NCBI GenBank assembly: GCA_041651575.1
Contig: JBAZJB010000001.1
Coordinates: 74,430 to 138,429, forward strand
From: Candidatus Nanoarchaeia archaeon
Lineage (GTDB): Archaea; Nanobdellota; Nanobdellia; SCGC-AAA011-G17; JAFCDX01
Reading direction: 5' to 3'
DNA: 64,000 nt
The notes below the pieces were generated by a model. It did not search any database. It was not told where the DNA came from and worked only from the letters and a program-made list of their open reading frames with translations. Shown here piece after piece: positions 12,745-53,400 of this stretch (positions are counted from its first letter, which is position 1; each line of letters begins with the position of its first letter). Position numbers and translations under genes: made by a program.

Positions 12745-13049
12745 CAACTGAATACAGAACAAGTTATATTTAAATTAGGGCAAGTCAATCCTTTTTCATT
12801 AGAATCTATTTTTTCATTACCATTTAAATCTACATTAAATTTATTGTTACAGAAAATTTCTTTTAATTCTATAGCGGGATAGGTTTCATATTGTATACAA
12901 TAATTATTACACCTGTTTGTTACTTCTGGAAGATTTAATGGATATTCTATAAAAGTTCTAGTCTTACTATGGTCGATAAATCCAATAATAAATAACCCTA
13001 TTAAAATAAGAAGCATTAAAATAACAACAATTAATATTCCTTTTTTCAT
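12741..13049 (-). CDS. Small Cys-rich membrane-anchored protein (possible class III signal 'MKKG|ILIVVIL')
   Basis: N-terminal KKG followed by a long hydrophobic stretch. Cys-rich C-terminus. Confidence 0.3.
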   Translation of the reverse strand: MKKGILIVVILMLLILIGLFIIGFIDHSKTRTFIEYPLNLPEVTNRCNNYCIQYETYPAIELKEIFCNNKFNVDLNGNEKIDSNEKGLTCPNLNITCSVFSC

Positions 13050-28880: not shown

Positions 28881-30899
28881 ATGAAAAGAGGAGTATTAAT
28901 TATATTTTCTTTGTTGTTTATTTTGTTGAGTGTTAATTGTTTTGCATTTACTATTTCCGGGCATACTCTTTATAATGGTGACCCTTTTTCTGGGGTTAAA
29001 GTTAATATTAGTTGCCCTCCTTATTATTATGAAACTGATTCTGATTATTTAGGAGATTATAGTATTACTGACAATATAGCGTGTCCTAGTTATTATTTAA
29101 TTATCGCAGAAATTATTGATGAAGATCCTACTGATTCTGAAGGCACTTCACTTTATACGGCTAAGAAGATGAGTTATCCTGGAAGTAATCCTGTTAGTCT
29201 TGATTTAATTATGTGGATTGATATAGATAATGATCATTATACAATTTTAGGTTATTGTGCTTCTCCTTTATGTACTTGTCCTGGAGATCCAAGATGTAGA
29301 ATGGATTGTGTTGATACTCTAACTAATGATCCTGCAGGTTGTCCAACTTTAGTAAGTGGTTGTACATCAGCAACTTCAGCTTGTGCAATTTGTATAAATC
29401 CTGGCGCAACAGAAATTTGTGATGGAAAAGATAATAATTGTGATAATTCTATTGATGAAGGAGGAGTATGTCCTACAATAACTTATTATTGTAATACTGA
29501 TAATGATGGTTATTTTAGTTCAACCGCTTTAACTTGTAATACTTATAATTGTAAACCTACTTCTTGTCAACTTACTGCAGGAAATGATTGTGATGATACC
29601 AAATCAGATGATCCTACGGGTTGTCCTGCTATTAAAACCTCTTGTATTACTTCTACTTCAAAATGTGCTATTTGTATAAATTCTGGAGCAACAGAAGTTT
29701 GTGATGGAAAAGATAATGATTGTATCAATGGAATTGATGAAAATGTAAATTGTGGTACAACTTTATGTACGGCAGCAAACACAATAGGTTCATGTTCAAA
29801 TATTTGTGCAGGTATATCTGGTTGTTCAACTTGTATTCCTATATGTACTTGTCAAACTGGATTTTGTGATCAAGATAATAATATGGCAAATGGTTGTGAA
29901 ATATCAACAACAGAAATTTGTAATAGTATAGATGATGATTGTGATAATTCTATTGATGAAGATTTAACAAGGTATACCTATTATCAAGATTCTGATGGAG
30001 ATGGATATGGAAACTCTTTAGTTAATGTAACTACATGTGATTCTACTCCTCCAACAGGTTATGTAACGAATGATGATGATTGTGATGATACTAATCTTAA
30101 TAAAAATCCTGGGGCAGTAGAAATATGTGAAAATGGAATAGATGAAGATTGTAGTGGTTTTGATAAAACTCCTTGCGATTGTAATGACATTTCTAATTCT
30201 GAAGCATGTTTAAATAATAATGATTGTTACTGGGATTTTAGTGCTAATAGTTGTTTTGATTGTGCTCTTCCGCCTCTTTGCGCAGTATTTGGTTTAGATG
30301 AAAATTATTGTGAATCTAGAAGATGTGGATTACCTGTATGTGTATGGGATGATACTATTAATCCAAATGAATGTAAACAAGATGGAAATTGTGGAGAACA
30401 TGGTGGAGATTATGATAGTGATGGAATTTGTGATGATGCAGATAATTGTGTAGATATTTATAATCCAAGTCAAAATAATGAAGTATGTATGTGTTCGCAA
30501 GTTACAAATCAACCAAATACTCTTTGTGAAGATATTTTTGGAATAGGAACAATTTGTGATGAAGAATGTATTGGAGGTTGTTTTATTACTTCATCAGATT
30601 CTGCAACAGGAAAATGTTGTGTTTATGGAAGATGCGGTATTTCTAGTTATACTTTATCAGGAACTAGTTCATATGAATTAAGAAATAGCGAATGTATAAA
30701 TGCAAATGAAGAAGGAATAGGAACAAGATGGGTTGTTAAATTTAATCCCGCTACAGGAAATCAAATCGGAGAATCTTACCAAGAACCTTGTGCAATTCTT
30801 CCAAAACAAAAACAAGTTCCTTTTTTCAGTTTAATTTCAGCAATGTCAATAGTATTTATTCTAACTTTATTCTATGTATTTAAAAGAAAATCATTTTAA
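28881..30899 (+). CDS. Cell-surface Cys-rich protein with multiple MopE-like putative metal-binding repeats and C-terminal TM anchor
   Basis: Signal peptide. 'CINPGATEICDGKDNNCDNSIDEGGVC', 'CINSGATEVCDGKDNDCINGIDEN', 'CNSIDDDCDNSIDED', 'PGAVEICENGIDEDCSG'. C-terminal hydrophobic helix. Confidence 0.6.
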   Translation: MKRGVLIIFSLLFILLSVNCFAFTISGHTLYNGDPFSGVKVNISCPPYYYETDSDYLGDYSITDNIACPSYYLIIAEIIDEDPTDSEGTSLYTAKKMSYPGSNPVSLDLIMWIDIDNDHYTILGYCASPLCTCPGDPRCRMDCVDTLTNDPAGCPTLVSGCTSATSACAICINPGATEICDGKDNNCDNSIDEGGVCPTITYYCNTDNDGYFSSTALTCNTYNCKPTSCQLTAGNDCDDTKSDDPTGCPAIKTSCITSTSKCAICINSGATEVCDGKDNDCINGIDENVNCGTTLCTAANTIGSCSNICAGISGCSTCIPICTCQTGFCDQDNNMANGCEISTTEICNSIDDDCDNSIDEDLTRYTYYQDSDGDGYGNSLVNVTTCDSTPPTGYVTNDDDCDDTNLNKNPGAVEICENGIDEDCSGFDKTPCDCNDISNSEACLNNNDCYWDFSANSCFDCALPPLCAVFGLDENYCESRRCGLPVCVWDDTINPNECKQDGNCGEHGGDYDSDGICDDADNCVDIYNPSQNNEVCMCSQVTNQPNTLCEDIFGIGTICDEECIGGCFITSSDSATGKCCVYGRCGISSYTLSGTSSYELRNSECINANEEGIGTRWVVKFNPATGNQIGESYQEPCAILPKQKQVPFFSLISAMSIVFILTLFYVFKRKSF

Positions 30900-36227: not shown

Positions 36228-36279
36228 CTGTAGGTAACAACTTATAACCTTTTTAAAAGGGTTTTAAAGGAGTATAAAC

Positions 36280-36415
36280 GCCGAGAGCAGGATTTGAACC
36301 TGCACATCCTTTCGGAAACCAGCTTTCTTGCACAACCTTTCCAGGTTCGCCTTACTTCGAGGTTCGCCTTACTCTATTAGTAATCTGGCGCAATACCAGG
36401 TTATGCGATCTCGGC
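36280..36415 (-). tRNA. Intron-containing type-II tRNA gene (probably tRNA-Ser; pre-tRNA 136 nt, intron position unresolved)
   Basis: Minus-strand 7-bp acceptor stem GCCGAGA/TCTCGGC. T-arm GCAGG-TTCAAAT-CCTGC. 3-bp D-stem with 11-nt D-loop (GCA-TAACCTGGTAT-TGC) as in type-II tRNAs. Variable-arm hairpin TCC-GAAA-GGA. Discriminator G. About 50 nt of extra internal sequence. Confidence 0.55.
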
Positions 36416-36456: not shown

Positions 36457-36894
36457 TCAGAATTTTTCCCATAAATACAATCTAAAAATTCTTGTTTCTG
36501 TTAAGTTAGACAACATAATACTTTTTGCATAAACATCTTTATTATTAGGTATGAAGTCATTTTTTATATCTGGATTACAATTTGTATTTTTTTGATTACA
36601 TACTGTAAAATTAAAATCAAGAGTAACAAACTTTTTTGTATTATCTTTTATAGTAGCATATAGGTTTATTCTATTTGGGTCTGTAGGATTAAATGGAACG
36701 TTTAATGGGGATTCTAATACATTTTTTCTTAAAGAACTATTCAATTCTATTATTTTTAAGGTATTTTTTTGAATAGAACTTAATGTATTTTCTTTTTGAC
36801 TTTCTTTTGGAGTTAATATAGTCATTATAAAAATGAAAGTAAGTAAGATTGCAATTACTGCTTCTACTGTCCTTATGTATGCTTTTTTATTCAT
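36457..36894 (-). CDS. Type IV pilin-like protein (class III signal peptide 'MNKKA|YIRTVEAVIAILL')
   Basis: KKA followed by a hydrophobic helix. Last gene of the pilus operon. Confidence 0.45.
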   Translation of the reverse strand: MNKKAYIRTVEAVIAILLTFIFIMTILTPKESQKENTLSSIQKNTLKIIELNSSLRKNVLESPLNVPFNPTDPNRINLYATIKDNTKKFVTLDFNFTVCNQKNTNCNPDIKNDFIPNNKDVYAKSIMLSNLTETRIFRLYLWEKF

Positions 36895-36895
36895 T

Positions 36896-37648
36896 TTACC
36901 ACGCCATTATTGTTATTGTTATAGACTCTAATTCTCCATTTTGTTTTAATATATAGTTTGGTATTTGTCTTACAAATACATCTGCGCTTGCAGGAGGAAT
37001 CAAATTTTGTGGGAATTTATTTTCTCCTATTTGAATACTAAATTCTTTATTTGGTGGGAAATTCCATTCTGTTTTTAAATCTTCATAATTCTTTCCAAAT
37101 AATGAATTAATTTTATCTCCACAATTTCCATCATCACATATTCCTTTAATTGTTTCAGCAATTCCATACTGATAATTTGTTATAGGAACAATACAATTAC
37201 CACTAGAACCTCCTCCAGCAATATTGAAATCTAGAGAATTAAATATAAAAAGTTCATCGTTTGTTGCAGGTAAATTTCCATTTATTAAATAAGAAGCTAT
37301 ATTAAAATTTAAATAATCTCCACTAATTGAAGAAGCTAAAATAATACTTTTGGTTTTACTATAAACTTTTGTGTTTTTATCTAGCCATTCAAATGGAAAT
37401 GTTAATTTTGCTGCAACTGGATCTCCACTACATTGCCCCCCATCTAATTTAACATTCAAAGGAACTTTGGTAATTTCCCAATTAATGTCTTTCATTAAAC
37501 CATCTTGAACTAAATCTAATAAAACAGATCCTTTATACAATGGATCAATTCCAGGTTTTAACATTACTATAACGAATAGAGTATATACCATAAATAAACC
37601 TATTGCAAGCATCCAATCTAAATGATGACCTATTGCTTTTTTATTCAT
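36896..37648 (-). CDS. Type IV pilin-like protein (start at internal Met giving 'MNKKA|IGHHLDWMLAIGLFMV')
   Basis: The internal ATG forms an ATGA overlap with the stop of the upstream gene at 37645-37647. Confidence 0.45.
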   Translation of the reverse strand: MNKKAIGHHLDWMLAIGLFMVYTLFVIVMLKPGIDPLYKGSVLLDLVQDGLMKDINWEITKVPLNVKLDGGQCSGDPVAAKLTFPFEWLDKNTKVYSKTKSIILASSISGDYLNFNIASYLINGNLPATNDELFIFNSLDFNIAGGGSSGNCIVPITNYQYGIAETIKGICDDGNCGDKINSLFGKNYEDLKTEWNFPPNKEFSIQIGENKFPQNLIPPASADVFVRQIPNYILKQNGELESITITIMAW

Positions 37649-38538
37649 ATAACACCTACTGCTATTGCTGGAGTCCATGATACTGTTGAAATAATCAAAT
37701 ATCCAACAATTACAAATATTAAACTATGTTTTACTCCATATTTTAATTCCCCTTCTGAAAATTTTCCAATTAATAATCCCGCAAATAATCCTTGTATTAA
37801 TACCATCCAAGTAAAGGTATTTGCCATAATTTTTTCATCTAATTTTGCAGTTGAACTACTTCCTAAGGAAATTCCAGGAACTCCGGAAATAGGAGAGCCA
37901 CCCATACTTAATTCTTCTCCACCTAAATTACTTATTTTTGGCATAAGATAAACTTGCATCATTAACATTATTGCAATAAATATAAAAAAGATAATGTATC
38001 CTTGTACAACTTGTGAATATACAGAAGATTTTCTTTCTTCTTTTATTTTCTTAATAGAATATACTGAATTGCTTACTGCTTGTAACACCTCTGCCATATT
38101 ACCACCTGATTTTTCTGCTTCTGTAACTATAGAAATAGATTTATTTATAACTTTATTCCTTGCATCGTTTGCAAATACTTCTAGAACATCATCTAAAGGA
38201 AAACCCCATTCTATTTGTGCAGCCATTTTTTTAACATGAGGAGTTAAAGCACCATAATCTTCTGTTGAAATTTGTATAATTGCTTTTGGAATAGGAATAC
38301 CAGATTTTACTGTTTCTACTAAGGCTCTTACAAATTCTAAGAATTTTGTTTCTATTTCTTGTTGTCTTTTGTTTTCAGCTAAAAAATCTAGGAAGAATTG
38401 TATGCCCATTACAACGAATCCAATAATTATTACAGGTTTAAACCATCTTTCATTTAAAAAATAGATAAAATTAATTATAAGAATCAATATTCCTATTATT
38501 ATAAATAAAATATGTTTTGATTGAAGTTTTATTTCCAT
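37645..38538 (-). CDS. TadC/FlaJ-like pilus platform membrane protein (half-size)
   Basis: T2SS-F-like domain with cytoplasmic helical region and 3-4 TM segments. Follows the ATPase gene. Confidence 0.5.
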   Translation of the reverse strand: MEIKLQSKHILFIIIGILILIINFIYFLNERWFKPVIIIGFVVMGIQFFLDFLAENKRQQEIETKFLEFVRALVETVKSGIPIPKAIIQISTEDYGALTPHVKKMAAQIEWGFPLDDVLEVFANDARNKVINKSISIVTEAEKSGGNMAEVLQAVSNSVYSIKKIKEERKSSVYSQVVQGYIIFFIFIAIMLMMQVYLMPKISNLGGEELSMGGSPISGVPGISLGSSSTAKLDEKIMANTFTWMVLIQGLFAGLLIGKFSEGELKYGVKHSLIFVIVGYLIISTVSWTPAIAVGVI

Positions 38539-38539
38539 T

Positions 38540-39502
38540 TTATATCTCAGTTGCTGTTAAATTAAGGAATGCTATGAAACCTACGTTTAGTATAGGTAAA
38601 ACTAAAAAGGTTCCATATTGAGCAATGACTGTTGCAGTTAATCCTCCTACTGCTCCTCCAATAACATTAATGATTGCTAAAGTTGTAATAAACAATAAAG
38701 GTGCAGCAATTAATATTCCTGTATAAATATCTGAATATGTTGCAATAGATTCTACATATTTTTGTCTTTCTAATTTGTATGTTGAAAGAGCGTCTTGTGC
38801 TTTTGTTTCTAAATATGTTTTTAAATCTCCACCTGAATTAACTGTTGATACAATTCCATTTAATAATTCTCCAAATTCTGGACTTGGGCAAGTTGATGCA
38901 ACAGATTTCAAAGCAGTGCTTAAATCATAACCAAAAATATTAATATGATTCATTATTTTTTTAAATTCTGTTTCTAATTCAGGATATTCTTTGGATTGTA
39001 TTAACAAACTGAAAATATTTATTGGTGGAGTACCTGAGCCAGCAATAGCTGCCATATGAATAATTGCAAAAGGTAGTTCTGATTTAATTTTTTTCCTTCT
39101 GCTATTAATATTTGATTTTGGATAGAAGAAAAAAAGGATTACAGTAAAAAATAGAGATAATACTCCTAAACCTAATCCATTAAGAATATTTTTTAATATA
39201 ATTGAAAATAGAATTGTTCCTACAAAAAAAGCTAAAATACTTGAAAATATCATTATACTTACATAACTTTCAGAAAGCATATTTAATCTTATTAATTTTA
39301 AAGAATTAAATAAAGGTTTGAACAATTCTGGAAATTTTCTTAGTAAAAGAAGAGTTATAGGTTCTACAAATCTATTTGATATTTTTGCAAATTGGTTTGG
39401 TTTGTATAAAGTATATGGAACTACTGCAGGTTTTGATTTTACTTTTTTATAATTTTTAGCAAATTTCTTAATATAAGGATTTATTTCAGGATTTTTTTTC
39501 AT
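38540..39502 (-). CDS. TadB/FlaJ-like pilus platform membrane protein (half-size)
   Basis: Same architecture as the adjacent platform gene and directly downstream of the ATPase. Confidence 0.5.
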   Translation of the reverse strand: MKKNPEINPYIKKFAKNYKKVKSKPAVVPYTLYKPNQFAKISNRFVEPITLLLLRKFPELFKPLFNSLKLIRLNMLSESYVSIMIFSSILAFFVGTILFSIILKNILNGLGLGVLSLFFTVILFFFYPKSNINSRRKKIKSELPFAIIHMAAIAGSGTPPINIFSLLIQSKEYPELETEFKKIMNHINIFGYDLSTALKSVASTCPSPEFGELLNGIVSTVNSGGDLKTYLETKAQDALSTYKLERQKYVESIATYSDIYTGILIAAPLLFITTLAIINVIGGAVGGLTATVIAQYGTFLVLPILNVGFIAFLNLTATEI

Positions 39503-39509
39503 ATTTCAC

Positions 39510-41111
39510 CTAAATTACGCCGAATTGCTTTAAAACTTTTTTTGGATTTCTTGCATATTCATTAATTACTGTTTGAACTTGTTTATAATCAAAAATTTTA
39601 GCTTTGTACATAGCAACTAATAGTTTCGTTCTTAATTGGAATTCTTCTAATAATCTTTCTTTACCAAATCCAAATTCTTCTGTTAATTTTTTAAAAGTAT
39701 AACTATCTGTTTTAAAGAAAAAAGTATCTGTATTAACATCCCATTTAAATGGAATATTAATTTGTGCTTGTCCTGATTCTCCTACAGAAATAATTTCTTG
39801 AATCATTTTTATTCTTCTTACATCTACATTGTTTACTTTTGCATGTCCAATAACACAAACAACATCAAGGGATTCAACTAAAGTTGCAGATAAATTAATT
39901 GGGGGGCTCTCAAGTCTTTTTATCATACTTTCTACATCATTTGCGTGCATTGTACCCATTGATGGATGTCCTGAGCTCATTCCCTGGAATAAAACGAAAG
40001 CTTCTTGTCCTCTAATTTCTCCCACAATTACATAATCTGGTCTTTGTCTGAAAGATTCTTTTAATAAATCAAATAAAGTAACTTCTCCATATTTTTGGCC
40101 AACAATATTTGCTAGACCAATACCTTCTCTAGCTACACTTGGTAACCAGTTTTCATGTTCTAAATTTAATTCTCTAGTATCTTCTATTGAAACAATTCTA
40201 GCTTGAGGTGGGATAAAAAAGGCTAATCCATTTAAGAAAGTTGTTTTACCTGAACCTGTTCCACCAATGACCATAACATTAAATTCGTGTTCAATCAAAA
40301 TCCATAGGTATGCTAAAATTTCTGGGCTTACTGTTCTCATATCAATCATTTTTACAGGGCTCCATGGCTCTTTAGTAAATTTTCTTAAAGTGAAAGTAGG
40401 TCCTTTTGAAGAAATGTCTGTTGTATAAGTTGCATTTACTCTAGATCCATCTGGCAAAGATCCATCTAAAATTGGATTTGAATAAGAAACATATCTTCCT
40501 GCTTTTTGTGCTAATTTTTCTACAAAAGAAATTAAATAAGGAAATTCATTAAATGTAATATTTGATCTTAAATTTCTATATTTTCTATGTACTATATAAA
40601 CTGGACTCTTTATTCCATTACATTCAATATCTTCTATAAAATAATCACATAATAAAGGTTCAATCTCATTCATACCTACAAAATCTCGATAAACATAATA
40701 CATTATTTTTAAAAAAGTATCATTAGAAATTTTTAATCCAAGTTCTTTTAATAAAGTTTTAATATTTCTTTCTAAATATTCAATAACTGCTTCTCCTTTT
40801 TTAATACTAATAAAACTAACATTGATGAATTCTTTTACTCCATTTTCTAATATTTTTAGAACTTCTTTTTCTCTATCATCTAATCTTGGTTCTATTACTT
40901 CATAAATAACATCGCCTTCTTTTGGATCCCAATGTATATGAACAGAAGCATAAGGTTCAATTAAAGGATATTGAATATCAATTTTTTCTTTGTTTGGAAA
41001 ATCAGGTAATACTGGAAGTTTTTCTATACGATTTATTTTGAAAAGAGTCTCTTCTTTTATAGAACTATCTACTTTTTTATCTACCTCTTTTTTTCCAAAT
41101 AACTTAAACAT
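39510..41111 (-). CDS. Type IV pilus assembly ATPase (FlaI/TadA/GspE family)
   Basis: Walker A 'GGTGSGKTT', Asp box, Walker B 'DYVIVGEIRGQEA' and His box 'GHPSMGTMHA'. Confidence 0.8.
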   Translation of the reverse strand: MFKLFGKKEVDKKVDSSIKEETLFKINRIEKLPVLPDFPNKEKIDIQYPLIEPYASVHIHWDPKEGDVIYEVIEPRLDDREKEVLKILENGVKEFINVSFISIKKGEAVIEYLERNIKTLLKELGLKISNDTFLKIMYYVYRDFVGMNEIEPLLCDYFIEDIECNGIKSPVYIVHRKYRNLRSNITFNEFPYLISFVEKLAQKAGRYVSYSNPILDGSLPDGSRVNATYTTDISSKGPTFTLRKFTKEPWSPVKMIDMRTVSPEILAYLWILIEHEFNVMVIGGTGSGKTTFLNGLAFFIPPQARIVSIEDTRELNLEHENWLPSVAREGIGLANIVGQKYGEVTLFDLLKESFRQRPDYVIVGEIRGQEAFVLFQGMSSGHPSMGTMHANDVESMIKRLESPPINLSATLVESLDVVCVIGHAKVNNVDVRRIKMIQEIISVGESGQAQINIPFKWDVNTDTFFFKTDSYTFKKLTEEFGFGKERLLEEFQLRTKLLVAMYKAKIFDYKQVQTVINEYARNPKKVLKQFGVI

Positions 41112-41184
41112 CTTACCTAATTTAATATAAAAATTGTATATATAAATAGGTTTCGAATTTAGAAAATTGGTAAAATTAGGCTTT

Positions 41185-41703
41185 TTATATGCCCTTTATT
41201 GATATTTTGCCTGCATCTTCGTTTCTTATAAGGAGATTATATTTTCCTGAAAGTGTTTTTAAATCTGTATTTAATCCTGCTAAAGCGTTGGTATAATCTA
41301 AAGTTAATGTAATTTGATATTGACTTCCTTGTTTTATTGTAGATATTTTTATATTTCCTTCTGTTATTGTTGAACCTTCTTGAGATGCAATGTATTTTGA
41401 AGGACCAGTCCAAGTTATTTTCTTTGGTGCTATTGTTGGAGGATTATCTGCTCCTGTGGTTATACTGAATTCTCCTCTTTGTATTTCAATTGAAGCTGTT
41501 CTTTGTGCTCCAGGACCTTCTCTTAAAACGTCTCTTATTGTAGAATCTATTTTATGCATAACTTCTTTTGTTTGTAAATAAGTATTTCTATCTCTCATTT
41601 TATTTATTGCTGGTGTTGTTGCCGCTAATACTACTGCAAGAATTACTACACCAAGAGCTACATAAATTACTGCTGAAATCCAAATATCTGCTTTTTTGTT
41701 CAT
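41185..41703 (-). CDS. Type IV pilin-like protein (class III signal 'MNKKA|DIWISAVIYVALGVV')
   Basis: KKA followed by a hydrophobic N-terminal helix. Confidence 0.5.
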   Translation of the reverse strand: MNKKADIWISAVIYVALGVVILAVVLAATTPAINKMRDRNTYLQTKEVMHKIDSTIRDVLREGPGAQRTASIEIQRGEFSITTGADNPPTIAPKKITWTGPSKYIASQEGSTITEGNIKISTIKQGSQYQITLTLDYTNALAGLNTDLKTLSGKYNLLIRNEDAGKISIKGI

Positions 41704-41743
41704 GTTCGTTTATATAAAAAATAAAAAAATAAAAAAAATAAAT

Positions 41744-42277
41744 TTATGCTATTGTTGCTTCTGCTGCTACTCCAACATCACAAGGTTTTGTATCTGCTCC
41801 AATTTTAACTTTTGGAACTACTAATACTTTATTTCCTGCTTTTATTATTTTACTATTTGTTAAGTTCCATTGTTGTATTGCTGCACCATTCCAACTTATG
41901 TTGGTTAGTATGTTTATATCTTTAGAACCTAAAATAGGTATAGCATTTGTATTTGTTACATCTGCATCAACTGTTATCCTTTCGGTAGTTGTTTCTATTA
42001 ATACAATTGCACCTGCAACTTCTTTTTCTGCATTATTATTTGCTATTTTTATTGTTAAATTGCTTAATGCTCCATCTACAGGTTTTTCTAAAATTGCACT
42101 AGTAATTTCTAAATTCATACCCATACAAGCAGTTTGTAAGTTTACTGTTTTTTCTTGTTCAGCTGTTAAGTTTTTAACAAAACCACCTGCCCATTGCAAG
42201 ACAACTGCAGCTAAAACTATAGTAAATCCAATTATCAAAACTGTTGCGATTAATGGACTAATTGCTTTCTTATTCAT
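41744..42277 (-). CDS. Archaeal type IV pilin (class III signal 'MNKKA|ISPLIATVLIIGFTIVLAA')
   Basis: Canonical archaeal pilin/flagellin-N-terminal-like 'ISPLIATVL' helix. Confidence 0.65.
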   Translation of the reverse strand: MNKKAISPLIATVLIIGFTIVLAAVVLQWAGGFVKNLTAEQEKTVNLQTACMGMNLEITSAILEKPVDGALSNLTIKIANNNAEKEVAGAIVLIETTTERITVDADVTNTNAIPILGSKDINILTNISWNGAAIQQWNLTNSKIIKAGNKVLVVPKVKIGADTKPCDVGVAAEATIA

Positions 42278-42302
42278 TTTTCACCTCCGTTATCATTTTT
42301 TA

Positions 42303-42731
42303 TTAAATATCAACTGTAACTTTTTTCTCAGCACAAGTTCCAGTAACTCCTTGTCTTACTATCATTGGCATAACATCTAATTTACCTGTTTTTCCTGGAA
42401 ATGTTAAAGATTTTTGTTCTCCAGGATTAAAAGATTCTTTTTCTACAAGACTTTCTCCATTACTTTGAACCATTATTCTTATGCCATTAAATAAAGCAGT
42501 TCCATCGTTTTTAATTTCAAGAACTGCATTTCCATTTATTTTTTGAGCACTTAATATAATTAATGAAATTTGAGTTGTACAATCAGTTTTAATTTCATTT
42601 AAAGCTCCATCTTTTTGCATTTGTTCTCTAATAATACTTCCATACCACATCCAAATTGCAACAGCTATTATTACAGTGAAACCAATTAGAAGTACTGTAG
42701 CAATTAATGGACTGATTGCTTTTTTATTCAT
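42303..42731 (-). CDS. Archaeal type IV pilin (start at internal 'MNKKA|ISPLIATVLLIGFTVIIAVAI')
   Basis: Same N-terminal domain. The track ORF extends 9 codons upstream to 42758. Confidence 0.6.
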   Translation of the reverse strand: MNKKAISPLIATVLLIGFTVIIAVAIWMWYGSIIREQMQKDGALNEIKTDCTTQISLIILSAQKINGNAVLEIKNDGTALFNGIRIMVQSNGESLVEKESFNPGEQKSLTFPGKTGKLDVMPMIVRQGVTGTCAEKKVTVDI

Positions 42732-42748
42732 TAAATCTTCTCTTTTTA

Positions 42749-43300
42749 TTATGGACATTTTCTAATACTCTTAATCTCCTTTAATTTAAAAACCTTTTCA
42801 TTACAAATTATATTTTTATCTTCTACATGGATTATTGGAGTAATAATTATTTCTAAAGGTTTTAAAGTTAAATCTAAATCATCATCGGTTGCATCTTCAT
42901 CATTTAAACCTGCACTTAAAGATAGAAAAGCATTTACTCCTGGATTGATAACATTAAGTTTAGTAGTTCCTTCTGAATTACTTGTAATTGAAAATTGTTC
43001 ATCTTTTTCTAATTCATCTAAATCAGTTCCTTGTTTTAGATATAGTGTAATATTTACTATGTTAAAAGAACCAGTATTTTTTAATGTAAAATTTAATATT
43101 TTGGCATCATTCAAAATTTTATAACAATCTAATTGTGCATTAATACTTGTATCTGGACAATATAAATCTGAACCTTTTTCTATATTACTTACTTGTTCTC
43201 TTGTTTGGTTTATTATATAATTAGAAACGAAAACTCCAATTACAACTGTAAATCCAACTAGCATAACATACGCAATTAATGGACTTATTGATTTTTTCAT
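42749..43300 (-). CDS. Archaeal type IV pilin ('MKKS|ISPLIAYVMLVGFTVVIGV')
   Basis: Same N-terminal domain. Confidence 0.6.
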   Translation of the reverse strand: MKKSISPLIAYVMLVGFTVVIGVFVSNYIINQTREQVSNIEKGSDLYCPDTSINAQLDCYKILNDAKILNFTLKNTGSFNIVNITLYLKQGTDLDELEKDEQFSITSNSEGTTKLNVINPGVNAFLSLSAGLNDEDATDDDLDLTLKPLEIIITPIIHVEDKNIICNEKVFKLKEIKSIRKCP

Positions 43301-43971
43301 GGTGTTTCTATTACCTGTACTTTTACATTATTGTTGTCTTCACTTTTTACTATGGCATTAAAATTTTGATTTCCTATTTTATAAAAGACTCCTGCTATTT
43401 GTAAATAAAATTGTCCAGTAGTTAAGTCTACATTTCCAGAATTTAATTCAGAACCAAAATTAGTTACTTTTGTTGGAATTGTTTTAGTAAATTTCATTCC
43501 AGCCACATCTAAACTTAATTCATTAACTGTTTTACTAGTATCAGAAAATAAACTATCTGTACAGGAGGGTTGTTCTGTAGAAGTACATATCCAAGTAATA
43601 TCTTCATTTGGGGTTGAAGATTTTTTACCTAAGAAATTACCTACTTTGAAAGTATACGCATTTTTAGTTTCTTCATCTTCTAAAGGATTGATGCTTCTAT
43701 AAACATAAACAATTCCTAAACTTGGATCAATTGATTGAGCATAATTAGTAAAATTTTTTGTAAAATCTTCTAAAGCTGTTTCTACATCCTCATTAGTTAA
43801 TATTGCTTCGTTAACAACTTTTGGTGTTTCTTCAGCATAATTAGCAGACAAATCTGGAAAATCTTCTAATAAAATTCTTTCTTCATAGGTATTTACTCTA
43901 GAAGATAATATCAAAATTACTCCACAAAGTATTACTGCTATTAAAATAAAAAATTGACCTCTTTTATTCAT
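43297..43971 (-). CDS. Pilin-like protein ('MNKRG|QFFILIAVILCGVILIL')
   Basis: KRG followed by a hydrophobic helix. First gene of the operon, with a 4-nt overlap to the next. Confidence 0.45.
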   Translation of the reverse strand: MNKRGQFFILIAVILCGVILILSSRVNTYEERILLEDFPDLSANYAEETPKVVNEAILTNEDVETALEDFTKNFTNYAQSIDPSLGIVYVYRSINPLEDEETKNAYTFKVGNFLGKKSSTPNEDITWICTSTEQPSCTDSLFSDTSKTVNELSLDVAGMKFTKTIPTKVTNFGSELNSGNVDLTTGQFYLQIAGVFYKIGNQNFNAIVKSEDNNNVKVQVIETP

Positions 43972-45128: not shown

Positions 45129-45223
45129 AGCCCCGACCGGGAATTGAACCCGGGACCTCTTCCTTACCAAGGAACTGAGCAGTTTTCATCAAACTAGTGC
45201 TCTACCGACTGAGCCATCGGGGC
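45129..45223 (-). tRNA. tRNA-Thr(GGU) with 22-nt non-canonical intron (between positions 27 and 28)
   Basis: Minus strand. Acceptor GCCCCGA/TCGGGGC. D-arm GCTC-AGTCGGTA-GAGC. T-arm CCGGG-TTCAATT-CCCGG. Anticodon arm C|TTCC-TTGGTAA-GGAAG after removing TAGTTTGATGAAAACTGCTCAG, leaving a mature length of 73 nt. Confidence 0.55.
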
Positions 45224-45853
45224 GCTTTTAATAAAATCTACCTTCTCTTTATTTTTTAAAGGTATGTATTTTAATATTTTATAGAAATCCTTTTTATGTA
45301 TATAAATCTGATGGTAAACATGATTATTATACTTCCAAGGGCAAGAATGATAAGAAAATTTAAATTGTTTAAACATATTATCACAAAATTTAGCTAAATA
45401 TTTACTTGCTGTAGAAAGCCCAAAACCACTTCCCTTTTTACCTCCGTCTGTATCTAATAATCCTGTAAGTAATGGGGCATAATACTTTTTTGGTAAATTT
45501 GGAATTTTAGCAATTTTTGCTTTTTTACCGGTGGTAATTCCTTTATTTTTTAAGAATAAGTATATCTTTTTGGATTCTATTGGGCAATTATATAAAATTT
45601 TTCTATCTTTCTTTTTTCTAATTTCTAATCGCGGATTTATATTAAATAATCTAACAAATAGAGGAATGTATACTTCTTTACAGAAATTTAAAGAATTACA
45701 GAAAAAATAAATAAGGTGTCTTTTCTGTATTTTTCCATTTGGTCTTTTTGTAAATGCTTTAGGTAAACTTCCGTCCCCTAAAATTAAACCACAAAAATAA
45801 GCTAAATCATTATTCCATCTTTTTGGTAAAATTATATTTTTATTTATGCTCAT
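45194..45853 (-). CDS. LAGLIDADG-family homing endonuclease-like protein (free-standing)
   Basis: Two LAGLIDADG motifs 'LAYFCGLILGDGSL' and 'LLTGLLDTDGGKK' about 110 aa apart. The last 10 codons read into the tRNA-Thr 5' end, so the true C-terminus is uncertain. Confidence 0.55.
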   Translation of the reverse strand: MSINKNIILPKRWNNDLAYFCGLILGDGSLPKAFTKRPNGKIQKRHLIYFFCNSLNFCKEVYIPLFVRLFNINPRLEIRKKKDRKILYNCPIESKKIYLFLKNKGITTGKKAKIAKIPNLPKKYYAPLLTGLLDTDGGKKGSGFGLSTASKYLAKFCDNMFKQFKFSYHSCPWKYNNHVYHQIYIHKKDFYKILKYIPLKNKEKVDFIKSAPMAQSVEH

Positions 45854-45962
45854 ACCACTATGGTGCTTTTTTTATTTATAAATCTCACGCACACCCGTTT
45901 GCAAGTTGCAATTTGTTGTAATATATATTTTGTAGAATATACTTTTTATAAGAAAAAATAAG

Positions 45963-46046
45963 TGTGGGAGAAGGGATTTGAACCCTCGCAAGCACTAAGC
46001 TACTGGATCTTAAGTCCAGCGCATTTGACCGCTCTGCCACTCCCAC
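45963..46046 (-). tRNA. tRNA-Leu(UAA)
   Basis: Minus strand. GTGGGAG/CTCCCAC acceptor. 3-bp D-stem with 11-nt D-loop. Anticodon arm CTGGA-CTTAAGA-TCCAG. Long variable arm. T-arm GAGGG-TTCAAAT-CCCTT. Discriminator A. Confidence 0.75.
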
Positions 46047-46084
46047 ATAATCCAAAAAAGAACTAAAATTACTTATAAATATTG

Positions 46085-50449: not shown

Positions 50450-53400
50450 ATGCATAAAAAGAGGGTAAGAGATACTTTTTACTTTTATACTTCTAAAAGA
50501 GAAAAAGGAAAAGTCAAAAGCGTTTACTTAGGTACTAATTTCTTATCTGCAAAGAAAAGAGAACTAGAGTTACAATTTAATAAGTTTAGTATACTACAAA
50601 CAAAATATGTATTAATGCTTTTAATTTTAGTACTTTTATTATCTGGATTTTATTTTATGGGAAATTATACTGGATTATTTATTTCTAATGAAACAGGAGA
50701 AACTTTTGTAAATGAAACTGAAGGTATTACTTTAACTGAACCTTCAAATGTTTCTGAAACCATAGCAGAAACTAATATAACAGAAATACCTGAAGAAATA
50801 ATTCTTGTAGAAGAGATTATAATCCCAGAAGAAGAACCAGAAGAAAGTTTTACCTTACAAGATTTAATTTTAAATAGGGGCAATGGACTACAAACTAATT
50901 TTACAGGAATAACTCCTGCAAATAATTCAATTCAATCAAACACAAATATATTTGTGAATGTTTCAAGCAGTGATGATGGAGATCATTATACTTTTTTGGA
51001 TTTTGATAGAGATTTGGCTTTATGGATGACAATGGATGATGTAAATGCTTCAACAGAGCCAACTGATTTATCAATATATAGCAACAATGGAAGCAGACAA
51101 GGAAACGCAGCACAATCTGCTTCTGGACATTTTGGAAAATCATTTAGTTTTGATGGTACTGGAGATTTTGTTGCTATAAAAAATGCAAATATTCTTAATC
51201 CGGCAGATAGATTAACTATTTCTGCTTGGATATATGCAAATGAATGGGAAACAAACCGTTGGGAAGGAACAATTGTTGGAAAAGATGATTGGGCAGATGG
51301 AAATGCTAATGGTTATGTATTAAGAACAGGAGATAATGGTAGACTTTCTTTTGCATTTGGAAAGGGGGCAGCAGGATGGTCAGAAATACTTTCAGATCAA
51401 ATAATGGCCATAGGAACTTGGTATCATGTTGTTGTAGTATTAAACAATACAAATATGAGTTTATTCATAAATGGAACAATTAAAAAAAGTGCATCTTTAC
51501 CAAGTGTAACAACTATAAACCCCTCTTCATATGCTTTAGATATAGGTAGAAGTACTTTTGCTACAGATAGATTATTCAATGGATTGATAGATGAAGTTTT
51601 AATTTTTAATAGAAGTTTATCTGATCAGGAAGTTTATGCCTTGTTCAATGCTTCATCAAATAATTATTATAATAATTTTACTAATCTTATTCTAGGAACT
51701 CATACATTTACTGCTTATTCTGTTAATAGTTCTGGAGTAAAAAATCAAACAGAACAAAGAATTGTAAGAATTATAGAAGAAGCAAATAGGCCTGCAATAG
51801 ATTTTGTTGATCCTACTCCAGGAAATGGAGCAAATACTTCAAACACTTCTGTTGAGATTAATGTTTCAATAGCTGAACAGAATTTAAATTCTTTAATTTA
51901 TAATTGGAATGGAACTAATTTTACTCTCTATGATAATACTTTGGTTCTAAGATATAATTTTGATAATAGAAGTGTATTAGGAGAAAATTCAACTTATGTT
52001 ATGGATATGAGCAATTATAGTAGCAATGGTAGTTTAATTGGTCCTCCAAATTTTATTACAGCTGGACGTTATGGTTTAGGATTAAACTTTTCTGGAAATG
52101 CTCAATATATTAATATAACTGATAACCCTAGAATAGATGTTACCAATAATTTTACATATTCTGCATGGATTAATCCTGTAGGTTATAATGCTTGTCAAGG
52201 AATTATTAGTAAATATCATGTAGGTTGGGGAAATGGGCCTACCTTTAGATTAAAATGTGCTGAACCTTATAATACAATTGATTTTAATGAATTAGTTTCA
52301 ACAAAAGTTATTGATTTGAATACTTGGACTCATGTTGTTGGAATTATTAAAGATGGAGTGGCATATGTTTATGTAAATGGAGTGTTAGATGCTTCTGGAG
52401 CTCCAGGATATGCCGTTTTAGATAATGCTCAACCATTAATGATAGGAGTAGATTTCTTTGTTAGTCCAAGATATTGGAATGGTTCTCTTGATGAGATAAA
52501 AATATGGAATAGAAGTTTAACTGCAGAAGAAGTTTATCAAGATTATGTTTCAAATTTATACAAATTTAATTCTACACAATGGTATTTTTATATAAATCAA
52601 TCACAGAATGCTACAACTAATTTAGGTTATGGAAATTATACTTATCAAGTTTTTGCAGAGGATAAATTTACACTTTCAAATCAAACAGGACAAAAATTAA
52701 TTAATCTAAATAATAATATCCCTACTTTTTTTAATATAACTTTTTTTGATAATGTAACAACTAGTTCATATGGAAAAGCAAAACAATTTAATGGTTCTGT
52801 GGCTATTGGGGATTTAGATTCTGGACAAAAATTAAATATTTCCTTTTTTTGGTATGAACAAGATTCTATAATCATCTCTAATAATACTGCAGGTTCTAAT
52901 ATGAGTAATATTACTAATGGAATAAATGGAACGATGTATTACACAACACAAAATTTAACTGCATTAAATTACAAGCTGGGTTATAATTACTCTTTAGGAA
53001 TTTACGTTTGTGATGGATTTGGATGTAATCAATCCAATTCAACTAGATTATTCATTAATAATACATTGCCTTTCTTTAGAAATATTACTTTATATGATAA
53101 TGTAACAACCACTTCTATAGGGAAGGGTTATTCATTTAATGCTTCAACTTTTATAGAAGATGCTGATAATGATAAATTAAACATTTCATTTTACTGGTTA
53201 AAAATAAATCCATATTCTATAATAAAAACTTCAACAAATAATGCAAATCAAAACATTACTAATGGAAATAATGGAACAGAATATTATTCTAGTATTAATT
53301 TAACTTATTCTGATTATGAATTAGGATTTAATTATACTTTTTTAGTTCAGGTTTGTGACAATTTATATTGTAATACTAGTAATTGGTCAACAAGTATATT

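What the first reader, a model, noticed from the sequence alone, without database searches (positions are those of the whole stretch)
36457..43971. Eleven-gene type IV pilus (Tad/Epd-like) operon with seven 'MNKKA'-type pilins and a split platform protein
A contiguous minus-strand operon, mostly with 1-10 nt gaps or overlaps, encodes five pilin-like proteins, then a FlaI/TadA-family ATPase, two roughly 300-aa TadB/TadC-like membrane proteins, and two further pilin-like proteins. Seven proteins start with a near-identical class III signal (MNKKA / MKKS / MNKRG followed by a hydrophobic helix), and three carry the canonical archaeal 'ISPLIATVL' pilin helix. Archaeal pilus and archaellum loci normally have a single full-length FlaJ/TadC platform protein. 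Two half-size platform genes resemble the bacterial TadB/TadC arrangement, which is of interest for the archaeal-bacterial Tad relationship. No prepilin peptidase (FlaK/PibD/EppA), FlaH/KaiC-like or FlaF/G/X genes are present here, so this is a pilus rather than an archaellum, and the peptidase must be encoded elsewhere. In a small-genome archaeon such a pilus is a candidate host/cell-attachment organelle.
Basis: partly seen in the sequence, partly recalled or inferred. Interest (0 to 1): 0.72.

Follow-up and report, generated by a model that had tools for sequence, protein, structure and literature searches.

The report
DPANN type IV pilus operon, split platform
This is a real ten-gene operon for building a type IV pilus in a tiny DPANN archaeon, and its membrane platform is truly encoded as two half-size genes, but such split platforms, DPANN ones included, are already in the literature, so it is a solid and fairly ordinary find.

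Summary
On the minus strand, 36457-43971 encodes five proteins with class III (prepilin-type) signals, a PilB/FlaI-family ATPase, two T2SSF-domain membrane proteins, and two more class III signal proteins.

The two membrane proteins are the colinear N- and C-halves of an archaeal FlaJ/PilC platform. The split is not a frameshift. All 14 informative related DPANN loci have the same order (ATPase, N-half, C-half), with different junction spacing. The top 120 of 374 homologues of the N-half are 309-476 aa with a single T2SSF domain.

The "Tad/Epd-like" label is not supported. The ATPase is closest to Archaeoglobus GspE (PDB 2OAP) and carries a PilB3-like C-terminal domain. The pilins are PilA/Pilin_N type and resemble solved archaeal pilins. 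Four accessory proteins weakly but consistently match the DUF7287/7288/7261/7289 set of a haloarchaeal pil locus. The operon therefore looks like a euryarchaeal "clade 2"-type adhesion pilus.

Two-gene platforms are already documented in several archaeal pilus clades, in DPANN, and as the proposed origin of TadB/TadC. No prepilin peptidase lies in the window or near the operon in relatives. A role in host attachment is plausible but untested. I classify it as a new member of a known kind, of low to moderate interest.

The parts
43297..43971 (-). g1: 224-aa class III signal protein (MNKRG|QFFILIAVIL...), a putative minor pilin
   Evidence: ORF. The KRG|Q motif plus hydrophobic helix is conserved in 6 orthologues. 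No Pfam or NCBIfam family for the window protein. One orthologue weakly hits DUF7261. The best hhalign partner in the haloarchaeal locus is its DUF7261 protein (E=0.01, N-terminal only).
42749..43300 (-). g2: 183-aa PilA-like pilin paralogue (MKKS|ISPLIAYVML...)
   Evidence: Weak TIGR02537/UpsA hits. BLASTP to g3 gives 6e-9 and to g4 gives 3e-7. In orthologues the -1 residue is G, A or S.
42303..42731 (-). g3: 142-aa PilA-type pilin (MNKKA|ISPLIATVLL...). The ORF can also start at 42758 (151 aa). Candidate major pilin.
   Evidence: TIGR02537 at 34.4 bits (cutoff 20) and Pilin_N at E=7.7e-4. PDB 8fk7, the Pyrobaculum calidifontis archaeal type IV pilus subunit, at E=1e-5 over residues 2-124. 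98% identical in the sister strain L007.
41744..42277 (-). g4: 177-aa PilA-type pilin (MNKKA|ISPLIATVLI...). Candidate major pilin, with 4 N-glycosylation sequons.
   Evidence: Pilin_N at 26.7 bits (cutoff 25.2) and TIGR02537 at 33.6 bits. PDB 8rey_M at E=9e-5, where chain residue 1 aligns to query residue 6, consistent with cleavage after MNKKA. Also hits 9myg and 8gi2. Sequons counted.
41185..41703 (-). g5: 172-aa class III signal protein (MNKKA|DIWISAVIYVALG...). It lies directly upstream of the ATPase in 13 related loci.
39510..41111 (-). g6: 533-aa PilB/FlaI-family assembly ATPase, of the afGspE/PilB3 type
   Evidence: T2SSE at 3.2e-34. FlaI NCBIfam model at 391 bits, below its 550 cutoff. 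PDB 2oap at 381 bits, FlaI at 255, CpaF at 170. With a family profile the scores are 462, 348 and 206. PilB3_C is found in 7 of 10 orthologues, best E=7e-9.
38540..39502 (-). g7: 320-aa N-terminal half of the FlaJ/PilC-type membrane platform (one T2SSF domain)
   Evidence: T2SSF at 1.6e-14. It matches positions 5-227 of the 555-position ArlJ model. The family HMM hits residues 36-319 of a fused 674-aa haloarchaeal PilC. AF2 model pLDDT is 85; the top PDB folds are the EpsF, OutF and PilC cytoplasmic domains (TM 0.7-0.78 normalised to target). 374 homologues; the 120 listed are 309-476 aa with a single T2SSF domain.
37645..38538 (-). g8: 297-aa C-terminal half of the platform (one T2SSF domain)
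   Evidence: T2SSF at 5.4e-17. It matches ArlJ positions 275-543 of 555 and UpsF positions 256-440. The family HMM hits residues 439-673 of the fused haloarchaeal PilC. It follows g7 in 14 of 14 related loci. The junction reads TAA-A-ATG.
36896..37648 (-). g9: 250-aa class III signal protein (MNKKA|IGHHLDWMLAIGLF...). The ORF can also start at 37678. It is the fastest-diverging gene of the operon.
   Evidence: The N-terminal K-[GA]-x(2,3)-H-[LI]-D-W motif is conserved in 7 orthologues. Only 61% identical to the sister strain, whose ATPase and platform are 97-99% identical. Only 2 hits in the 5.8-billion-protein search. 2 of 8 orthologues weakly hit DUF7287. In the haloarchaeal locus a DUF7287 gene likewise follows the platform gene.
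36457..36894 (-). g10: 145-aa class III signal protein (MNKKA|YIRTVEAVIAILL...) with an invariant Glu at +6
   Evidence: It is the last gene of the operon in 12 related loci. Weak DUF7288 hit in 1 of 13 orthologues. hhalign to the haloarchaeal DUF7288 protein gives E=0.009 over 63 columns.

Best explanation
This is a ten-gene operon of a Woesearchaeota/Nanoarchaeia (DPANN) archaeon that encodes the assembly machine and subunits of a PilA-type archaeal type IV pilus. It is related to the euryarchaeal 'clade 2 / PilB3-PilC3' family.

Likely mechanism (shown versus inferred):
- Seven prepilin-like proteins (g1-g5, g9, g10) are inserted in the membrane. An unlinked PibD/FlaK-type prepilin peptidase cleaves them after the [KR]-[GAS] motif. 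The motif is shown; the cleavage is inferred. One solved pilin's mature N-terminus aligns exactly at the predicted site.
- The hexameric ATPase g6 docks on a membrane platform made of g7 (N-half) and g8 (C-half). These act as a heterodimer equivalent to one full-length FlaJ/PilC. That they are the two halves is shown; the heterodimer is inferred. The 1-nt gap between g7 and g8 suggests translational coupling.
- The PilA-like g3 and/or g4 form the filament. g1, g5, g9 and g10, and perhaps g2, act as low-abundance initiating or tip pilins (inferred).
- The most likely role is adhesion to a surface or a host cell (inferred from known archaeal pili and the DPANN lifestyle).

The platform split is an ancient, fixed feature of this DPANN lineage, not an artefact.
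For: - Domain content: T2SSE ATPase, two T2SSF proteins, and Pilin_N/TIGR02537 pilins.
- The halves are colinear. g7 matches ArlJ positions 5-227 and g8 matches 275-543 of 555. On a fused 674-aa haloarchaeal PilC they map to residues 36-319 and 439-673.
- The split and the whole gene order are conserved in 14 of 14 DPANN loci, down to 52% ATPase identity. Junction spacing varies from a 4-nt overlap to 533 nt.
- Of 374 N-half homologues, the 120 listed are 309-476 aa with one T2SSF domain.
- The g7 model (pLDDT 85) matches the EpsF, OutF and PilC cytoplasmic domains.
- The ATPase aligns end to end with afGspE (2OAP) and has the PilB3_C domain.
- g3 and g4 match solved archaeal pilins. The mature N-terminus of 8rey aligns at Ile6 of g4.
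- Class III motifs are conserved in orthologues of all seven proteins. The MNKKA-coding motif occurs 5 times against 0.03 expected.
- The g5 model has pilin architecture: a long N-terminal helix plus a beta domain.
- Each accessory family's best match is a different member of one haloarchaeal pil operon. The order platform, DUF7287-like, DUF7288-like is shared.
Against: - No prepilin peptidase was found in the 64-kb window or within about 8 kb of the operon in 14 relatives. Processing is therefore assumed.
- g1, g9 and g10 have no significant family match. Their links to the DUF72xx families are below threshold and mostly confined to the N-terminal helix.
- The window ATPase itself scores only 17.4 bits on PilB3_C, against a cutoff of 27.
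- There are no expression, filament or function data.
- The clade 2 assignment rests on similarity to afGspE, PilB3_C and the pilin type. No phylogeny including Epd references was made.
Confidence: 0.78

Rival explanations
1. One reading: an Epd-like/Tad-like pilus, that is, a member of archaeal clade 1 / System 1. On this view the two-gene platform descends from the same fission that gave EpdJ/EpdK and bacterial TadB/TadC.
For: - There are two single-T2SSF-domain platform genes, as in Epd and Tad (PMC6668835).
- The 2026 preprint lists DPANN among the hosts of System 1, which is defined by two platform genes.
- g1 has Gln at +1, as Epd pilins do (Table 1 of PMC4371748).
Against: - The ATPase is much closer to afGspE (381 bits) and FlaI (255) than to the Tad ATPase CpaF (170), and it has PilB3_C.
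- Six of the seven pilins lack Q at +1. None hits the Epd-type class III signal family. g3 and g4 are Pilin_N/PilA type and 142-177 aa long, not the ~70-aa headless pilins of Epd.
- The order is ATPase, N-half, C-half, with no FlaH/TadZ-like gene and no EppA. In Epd the order is platform-platform-ATPase-FlaH.
- The DPANN halves score 70-101 bits on a fused haloarchaeal PilC but at most 16 bits on Ralstonia TadB/TadC.
Confidence: 0.1
2. The machinery is the same, but its main role is not adhesion. It could be a DNA-uptake (competence) pilus, or a short pseudopilus or bindosome-like structure that presents or secretes other class III signal proteins. Nutrient and nucleotide scavenging would suit a reduced genome.
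For: [quoted passage not shown]
- Bindosome-type systems use the same core. The BasE and BasF models score 213 and 46 bits on g6 and g7, far below their cutoffs.
- The 2026 preprint proposes widespread functionalised type IV filament machineries.
Against: - No DNA-binding, ComEC-like or substrate-binding protein lies in the operon or its immediate flanks.
- The pilins most resemble subunits of solved long surface filaments.
- The scores on the bindosome models are far below cutoff.
Confidence: 0.12
3. It is an archaellum, that is, a rotary motility apparatus.
For: The best NCBIfam model for the ATPase is FlaI (391 bits), and the best for the platform halves is ArlJ/FlaJ.
Against: - Both scores are far below the equivalog cutoffs (550 for FlaI; 400-570 for ArlJ).
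- No archaellin, FlaF/G, FlaH or FlaC/D/E/X family hits were found in the operon or its flanks.
- According to PMC4858521, all archaellum-bearing archaea carry those seven components.
Confidence: 0.02
4. The two platform ORFs are an artefact: a frameshifted or nonsense-mutated single gene, caused by an assembly error or pseudogenisation.
For: The ORFs are in different frames and only 1 nt apart. A single indel plus loss of the stop codon could fuse them.
Against: - The same sequence is found in independent assemblies from ENA, NCBI/JGI and Logan.
- The split is present in 14 of 14 related loci with different junction geometries.
- All 120 listed homologues of the N-half are single-domain.
- Each half starts with its own ATG. 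g7 also has a GGTGA Shine-Dalgarno-like motif 7-8 nt upstream.
Confidence: 0.01

Closest known systems
Euryarchaeal 'clade 2 / System 2' type IV pili, such as Haloferax volcanii PilB3-PilC3 with PilA pilins, the related haloarchaeal pil loci, and the Archaeoglobus fulgidus GspE ATPase (2OAP)
   Same: - The ATPase aligns over its full length with afGspE, and its orthologues carry the PilB3_C domain.
- The pilins are PilA/Pilin_N type.
- Accessory class III proteins weakly match the DUF7287/7288/7261/7289 set of a Haloferax mediterranei pil locus, and the order after the platform gene is the same.
- PMC4858521 states that clade 2 includes some nanoarchaeal ATPases and that many clade 2 loci have two tadC-like genes.
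   Different: - The platform is always two genes here, while the haloarchaeal comparison locus has a fused 674-aa protein. The 2026 preprint describes the System 2 platform as a single gene.
- The ATPase is compact (533 aa) and lacks the haloarchaeal N- and C-terminal extensions.
- There is no KaiC-like DUF7125 gene.
- All pilins are encoded in cis in one operon.
Epd pilus of Methanococcus maripaludis (clade 1 / System 1)
   Same: The platform is encoded by two adjacent single-T2SSF-domain genes, both needed for piliation in Epd (PMC4371748). There are several minor pilins in the locus. It is an archaeal adhesion pilus.
   Different: - The pilins are of a different type: Epd pilins have KGQ signals and the major pilin is short and headless.
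- Epd has a dedicated EppA peptidase in its locus.
- The gene order differs, and Epd has a FlaH-like ATPase.
- The ATPase here is afGspE/PilB3-like.
Bacterial Tad (Flp, type IVc) pilus with TadA/CpaF, TadB and TadC
   Same: One ATPase is followed by two half-size T2SSF platform genes. PMC6668835 explains this arrangement as fission of an archaeal two-domain platform gene.
   Different: - Only distant sequence similarity: CpaF at 170 bits over the core only, and Ralstonia TadB/TadC at 16 bits or less.
- No TadZ, secretin or Flp-type pilins.
- The order here is N-half then C-half, colinear with the fused gene. According to PMC6668835, TadB corresponds to the C-half and TadC to the N-half, which would make the Tad order the reverse (literature; not confirmed here).
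DPANN and Thermoproteota 'subsystem 4A' loci with two platform genes (Sivabalasarma & Albers 2026 preprint)
   Same: These are DPANN loci with two platform genes, an ATPase and pilins, and with accessory genes downstream of the platform gene.
   Different: Membership could not be tested because no arCOG or MacSyFinder models were available. No PilY-like adhesin was found here. The 4A-specific pilin arCOGs could not be checked.

Membership tests
Type IV filament (TFF) superfamily assembly system | PilB/FlaI/GspE-family secretion ATPase | tested here: met
   T2SSE at 3.2e-34. PDB 2oap at 381 bits, FlaI at 255, CpaF at 170.
Type IV filament (TFF) superfamily assembly system | Polytopic membrane platform with T2SSF domains | tested here: met
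   g7 and g8 each carry one T2SSF domain above the Pfam cutoff. Together they cover the N- and C-halves of ArlJ, UpsF and a fused haloarchaeal PilC. The g7 model matches the EpsF, OutF and PilC folds.
Type IV filament (TFF) superfamily assembly system | Filament subunits with a class III signal peptide | tested here: met
   g3 and g4 pass the TIGR02537 cutoff, g4 passes the Pilin_N cutoff, and both hit solved archaeal pilins. All seven have a conserved [KR][GAS] motif plus hydrophobic helix. FlaFind itself was not available.
Type IV filament (TFF) superfamily assembly system | Class III signal (prepilin) peptidase of family A24 | tested here: inconclusive
   None was found among the multi-TM ORFs of the window or within about 8 kb of the operon in 14 relatives. 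The rest of the ~0.77-Mb contig could not be read.
Archaellum | FlaB archaellins, FlaF/G, FlaH and FlaC/D/E or FlaX, plus FlaI and FlaJ at equivalog level | tested here: not met
   No such families were found in the operon or its flanks. The FlaI model scores 391 bits against a cutoff of 550. The ArlJ models score 101 bits or less against cutoffs of 400-570.
Epd pilus (archaeal clade 1 / System 1) | Two platform genes, each with one T2SSF domain | tested here: met
Epd pilus (archaeal clade 1 / System 1) | Epd-type pilins: KGQ signal and a short major pilin without a globular head | tested here: not met
   Only g1 has G|Q. No Class_IIIsignal/DUF361 hit at E<=0.1. The pilins are 142-250 aa and of Pilin_N type.
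Epd pilus (archaeal clade 1 / System 1) | Locus organisation platform-platform-ATPase-FlaH-like, with the EppA peptidase linked | tested here: not met
   The order is ATPase, N-half, C-half. No KaiC/FlaH-like gene or peptidase is present. The Epd organisation is taken from PMC6668835.
Epd pilus (archaeal clade 1 / System 1) | ATPase branching within clade 1 (EpdL/KlbA group) | not testable with these tools
   No Epd reference sequences could be retrieved. Indirectly, the ATPase is afGspE/PilB3-like.
Bacterial Tad / type IVc pilus | TadA/CpaF-type ATPase, TadZ, RcpA secretin and Flp pilins | tested here: not met
   The TadA model TIGR03819 scores 157 bits against a cutoff of 373. CpaF matches the core only. 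No TadZ, secretin or Flp families were found.
Euryarchaeal clade 2 / System 2 PilA-type pilus | PilB3-like ATPase (PilB3_C domain; afGspE-like N- and C-terminal domains) | tested here: met
   The profile of 10 orthologues aligns with positions 29-506 of 2oap at 462 bits. PilB3_C is found in 7 of 10 orthologues, best E=7e-9. The window protein itself scores only 17.4 bits against a cutoff of 27.
Euryarchaeal clade 2 / System 2 PilA-type pilus | PilA-family (Pilin_N) pilins | tested here: met
   g3 and g4 match strongly and g2 weakly.
Euryarchaeal clade 2 / System 2 PilA-type pilus | Shared accessory or minor pilin set (arCOG02911-type; DUF7287/7288/7261/7289 in haloarchaea) | tested here: inconclusive
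   Each DPANN family's best match is the corresponding haloarchaeal family, and the order platform, DUF7287-like, DUF7288-like is shared. All scores are below threshold, however (E from 3e-4 to 1e-2, mostly the N-terminal helix).
Euryarchaeal clade 2 / System 2 PilA-type pilus | Single fused platform gene, as System 2 is described in the 2026 preprint | tested here: not met
   The platform is split in 14 of 14 loci. PMC4858521, however, states that many clade 2 loci have two tadC-like genes, so this feature is not agreed to be defining.

The most novel reading that the evidence does not exclude
The Woesearchaeota/Nanoarchaeia split is an independent, in-place fission of a pilB-pilC-type operon within the afGspE/PilB3 (clade 2-like) lineage. 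It would be separate from the fission that produced EpdJ/EpdK and bacterial TadB/TadC. On this reading, platform fission is recurrent and easily tolerated. The DPANN clade would then offer a clean natural experiment on how a pseudo-symmetric single-chain platform becomes an obligate heterodimer: the order ATPase, N-half, C-half is kept colinear, the genes are translationally coupled, and hundreds of sequenced variants exist.
Probability: 0.4. Interest if true: 0.4.

Novelty: new member of a known kind. Interest (0 to 1): 0.28.

Why it matters
Type IV pili are the main candidates for how genome-reduced DPANN archaea hold on to hosts or surfaces, or take up DNA. A compact operon that encodes everything except the peptidase, and that is conserved across Woesearchaeota and Nanoarchaeia, is a useful target for metatranscriptomics, cryo-ET and heterologous expression.

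The fast-evolving g9 is a candidate specificity determinant. The split platform adds a well-sampled lineage to the known cases. That may help decide whether platform fission happened once, as proposed for Epd and Tad, or repeatedly. None of this changes current understanding. The locus fits existing classifications and the published hypothesis.

Tried and rejected
1. Frameshift artefact for g7/g8: rejected.
2. Archaellum: rejected.
3. Search for a prepilin peptidase. A scan for multi-TM ORFs with a GxGD motif in the window and in 15 related loci, plus Pfam on all candidate membrane ORFs of the window, found nothing.
4. Mapping the DPANN halves onto bacterial TadB/TadC using a Ralstonia megaplasmid Tad locus. 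Only one 16-bit hit, of the C-half profile to the second Tad platform gene. This is too weak to say which half corresponds to which.
The protein search for g9 found only 2 sequences, so no g9 model was made.
7. Sequence search of the PDB with g7 gave no hit, and with g8 only PilC at E=0.019.
8. A heterodimer (multimer) prediction of g7+g8 was not possible with the tools.
9. Epd reference sequences (EpdJ/K/L) could not be obtained, so no phylogeny was made.
10. Promoter and terminator scans were not run. The available scanner models bacterial sigma-70 promoters, and the 27% GC content makes TATA-like matches uninformative.

Full report
**Source and setting**

The window has about 27% GC. The ATPase protein of the locus is encoded, identically, on a 315-kb ENA metagenome contig and on a Logan assembly contig. 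The same proteins occur in an NCBI MAG named "Candidatus Nanoarchaeia archaeon", whose longest contig is 766 kb. Related loci come from Woesearchaeota, Pacearchaeota and Nanoarchaeota MAGs.

**Checking the observation**

On the minus strand, 36457-43971 holds ten ORFs. The public gene calls on the source contig also give ten. In order of transcription they are:

| Gene | Coordinates | Size (aa) | N-terminus or identity |
|---|---|---|---|
| g1 | 43297-43971 | 224 | MNKRG\|QFF... |
| g2 | 42749-43300 | 183 | MKKS\|ISPLIAYVML |
| g3 | 42303-42731 | 142 | MNKKA\|ISPLIATVLL |
| g4 | 41744-42277 | 177 | MNKKA\|ISPLIATVLI |
| g5 | 41185-41703 | 172 | MNKKA\|DIWISAVIY... |
| g6 | 39510-41111 | 533 | ATPase |
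| g7 | 38540-39502 | 320 | platform, N-half |
| g8 | 37645-38538 | 297 | platform, C-half |
| g9 | 36896-37648 | 250 | MNKKA\|IGHHLDW... |
| g10 | 36457-36894 | 145 | MNKKA\|YIRTVEA... |

- Coding sequence fills 7359 of 7515 nt. The gaps are -4, 17, 25, 40, 73, 7, 1, -4 and 1 nt. "Eleven-gene" is therefore a miscount. An adenylate kinase gene 15 nt upstream may have been included.
- The 14-nt sequence coding for MNKKA occurs five times in the 64-kb window, only at these gene starts. Dinucleotide-preserving shuffles give 0.03.
- For g3 and g9 the MNKKA start lies 9-10 codons inside the longest ORF. Either start is compatible with a class III signal.

**What the proteins are**

- **ATPase (g6).** It has a T2SSE domain at E=3e-34.
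- **Platform halves (g7, g8).** Each has exactly one T2SSF domain above the Pfam cutoff. Against full-length archaeal platform models they are complementary. g7 covers ArlJ positions 5-227 of 555 and UpsF positions 30-226. g8 covers ArlJ positions 275-543 and UpsF positions 256-440.
- **Comparison with a fused platform.** I built HMMs of the g7 and g8 families from related loci. On a fused 674-aa platform protein of a Haloferax mediterranei plasmid pil locus they hit residues 36-319 (101 bits) and 439-673 (70 bits). The two genes are thus the colinear halves of one FlaJ/PilC-type protein.
- **Structure of g7.** An AlphaFold2 model built on 61 homologues has a mean pLDDT of 85. Its best PDB fold matches are all cytoplasmic domains of GspF/EpsF, OutF and PilC, with probability 1.0 and TM 0.7-0.78 normalised to the target.
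- **PilA-type pilins (g3, g4).** Both pass the TIGR02537 archaellin/pilin N-terminal cutoff, and g4 passes Pilin_N. Both have direct sequence hits to subunits of solved archaeal filaments: 8fk7 (the Pyrobaculum calidifontis type IV pilus), 8rey (a Cuniculiplasma divulgatum filament), and 9myg and 8gi2 (Natrinema pilins). Residue 1 of the 8rey chain aligns with Ile6 of g4, which is exactly the predicted cleavage site after MNKKA.
- **g2.** It is a paralogue of g3 and g4.
- **g1, g5, g9, g10.** None has a significant family hit. Their [KR]-[GAS] motif and hydrophobic helix are conserved in orthologues at 25-50% identity.

**Is the split real?**

Yes. The junction reads ...ATA TAA A ATG GAA..., with the two ORFs in different frames. 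Three lines of evidence rule out an artefact:

- All 14 informative related loci, with ATPase identity from 97% down to 52%, show the same order: g5, ATPase, N-half, C-half, and downstream where the contig continues g9 (7 loci) and g10 (12 loci).
- The junctions between the halves in those loci range from a 4-nt overlap to a gap of several hundred nucleotides.
- The N-half has 374 homologues in the large protein database. All 120 listed are 309-476 aa with a single T2SSF domain.

The split is an old, fixed property of this lineage.

**Which kind of pilus?**

The "Tad/Epd-like" label does not hold up.

- **ATPase affinity.** It aligns end to end with Archaeoglobus fulgidus GspE (PDB 2OAP) at 381 bits, or 462 bits with a family profile. 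FlaI scores 255 (348 with the profile) and the Tad ATPase CpaF scores 170 (206), the latter over the core only.
- **PilB3_C domain.** Seven of ten orthologues carry Pfam PilB3_C (best E=7e-9). The window protein scores 17 bits, below the cutoff.
- **Pilin type.** The pilins are Pilin_N/PilA type rather than Epd-type. Only g1 has Gln at +1.
- **Missing Epd and Tad parts.** There is no EppA, FlaH or TadZ-like gene. The gene order differs from the Epd and Tad organisation described in PMC6668835.
- **Haloarchaeal comparison locus.** The H. mediterranei locus reads: KaiC-like DUF7125, a 931-aa ATPase with PilB3_C, a fused T2SSF platform, DUF7287, DUF7288, DUF7261, DUF7266, DUF7289, with a Pilin_N pilin nearby.
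- **Accessory families.** Orthologues of g9, g10, g1 and g5 give weak Pfam hits to DUF7287, DUF7288, DUF7261 and DUF7289 respectively. In an hhalign matrix of five DPANN families against six haloarchaeal proteins, every family's best partner is the expected one. E-values run from 3e-4 to 1e-2, and the alignments mostly cover the N-terminal helix.
- **Shared order.** The arrangement platform, DUF7287-like, DUF7288-like is common to both loci.

Each of these accessory matches is individually below threshold. Taken together with the ATPase and pilin evidence, they place the operon nearest the euryarchaeal "clade 2" family of Makarova et al. (PMC4858521). That paper notes that clade 2 includes some nanoarchaeal ATPases and that many clade 2 loci have two tadC-like genes. 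I could not obtain Epd reference sequences, so no formal phylogeny was made.

**What is already known**

- Both PilC paralogues EpdJ and EpdK are required for piliation in M. maripaludis, and the parallel with TadB/TadC was drawn in 2015 (PMC4371748).
- Makarova et al. 2016 report one or two TadC genes in clades 1, 2 and 4A/H/I/J.
- Denise et al. 2019 showed that each Epd/Tad platform gene has one T2SSF domain. They argued for gene fission and an archaeal origin of Tad.
- A 2026 preprint states that System 1 occurs in DPANN with two platform genes, and that some DPANN subsystem 4A loci also have two.
- DPANN pili as host-contact organelles are a standing hypothesis.

This locus is a new, well-conserved example.

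**Mechanism (inferred)**

1. An unlinked prepilin peptidase cleaves the seven prepilins.
2. The g6 hexamer drives assembly through a g7+g8 heterodimeric platform.
3. g3 and/or g4 form the shaft.
4. g1, g5, g9 and g10 act as initiating or tip subunits.

g9 diverges much faster than its neighbours. It is 61% identical between two strains whose ATPase and platform are 97-99% identical. It is therefore a candidate for the surface-exposed or specificity-determining component. Adhesion is the most likely role. DNA uptake is a reasonable alternative, given the requirement for archaeal pili in transformation.

**Open points**

- No prepilin peptidase was found in the window or near the operon in relatives.
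- Whether this split shares ancestry with the Epd/Tad fission or arose independently is undecided. The colinear order ATPase, N-half, C-half and the clade 2-like affinities favour an independent fission.

**Verdict**

The locus is a new member of a known kind. Interest is about 0.28.

Noticed in passing
L007:5811-8960, L011:5274-8618, L012:8001-11003, L013:440-5251 and L015:7908-10913 (orthologues of window 39510-41111): The window's pilus ATPase has no intein. In 5 of 14 related DPANN loci the orthologue is 1000-1603 aa and carries Intein_splicing domains (four also have LAGLIDADG). The inteins sit at four or more different sites: around aa 223, 241, 290 (next to the P-loop) and 309-312. One gene has two inteins. 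The sister strain, 97-99% identical over the flanking ATPase segments, has one, so intein presence varies between near-identical strains.
   Followed up: yes
window 36279-36415 (-): A tRNA gene with a ~65-nt insertion (intron) lies 41 nt downstream of the last pilus gene on the same strand. Rfam found it (38.8 bits) but ARAGORN missed it. The inserted stretch contains GTAAGGCGAACCT twice. The tRNA's identity was not determined.
   Followed up: partly
window 45129-46055 (-): A 219-aa LAGLIDADG_3 homing-endonuclease-like ORF (45194-45853) sits between a 95-nt intron-containing tRNA (45129-45223, called His with an odd ATG anticodon by ARAGORN) and tRNA-Leu (45962-46046). The 3' end of the ORF runs into the tRNA sequence. 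It could be a free-standing or tRNA-associated homing endonuclease.
   Followed up: no
window 36896-37648 (g9) compared with L007:10819-11541: Divergence within the operon between two close strains is very uneven. g9 is 61% identical, g1, g2 and g4 are 77-80%, g5 is 90%, g10 is 92%, and g3, the ATPase and both platform halves are 97-99%. This suggests diversifying pressure on some pilin-like proteins.
   Followed up: partly
L003-L006, L008-L010, L014-L016 (orthologues of window 38540-39502): In more distant relatives the N-half platform protein is 395-466 aa, with an extra N-terminal extension of about 100-150 aa. That extension is absent from the window protein (320 aa) and its closest relatives.
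   Followed up: no
window 36457-36894 (g10) and alignment A5: The g10 family has an invariant Glu at position +6 after the predicted cleavage site (G|[YWF]-[ILM]-[RK]-x-x-E-A). This recalls the conserved Glu5 of bacterial type IV pilins and is unlike the ISPLIA-type archaeal pilins in the same operon.
   Followed up: no
window 12741-13049 (-); 28881-30899 (+); 50450-55093 (+): Other possible surface proteins lie outside the operon. One is a 102-aa ORF starting MKKG|ILIVVILMLLIL, which looks like a class III signal. Another is a 672-aa protein with MopE-type Cu-binding repeats that starts MKRG followed by a hydrophobic stretch. The third is a 1547-aa protein containing Laminin_G_3.
   Followed up: no
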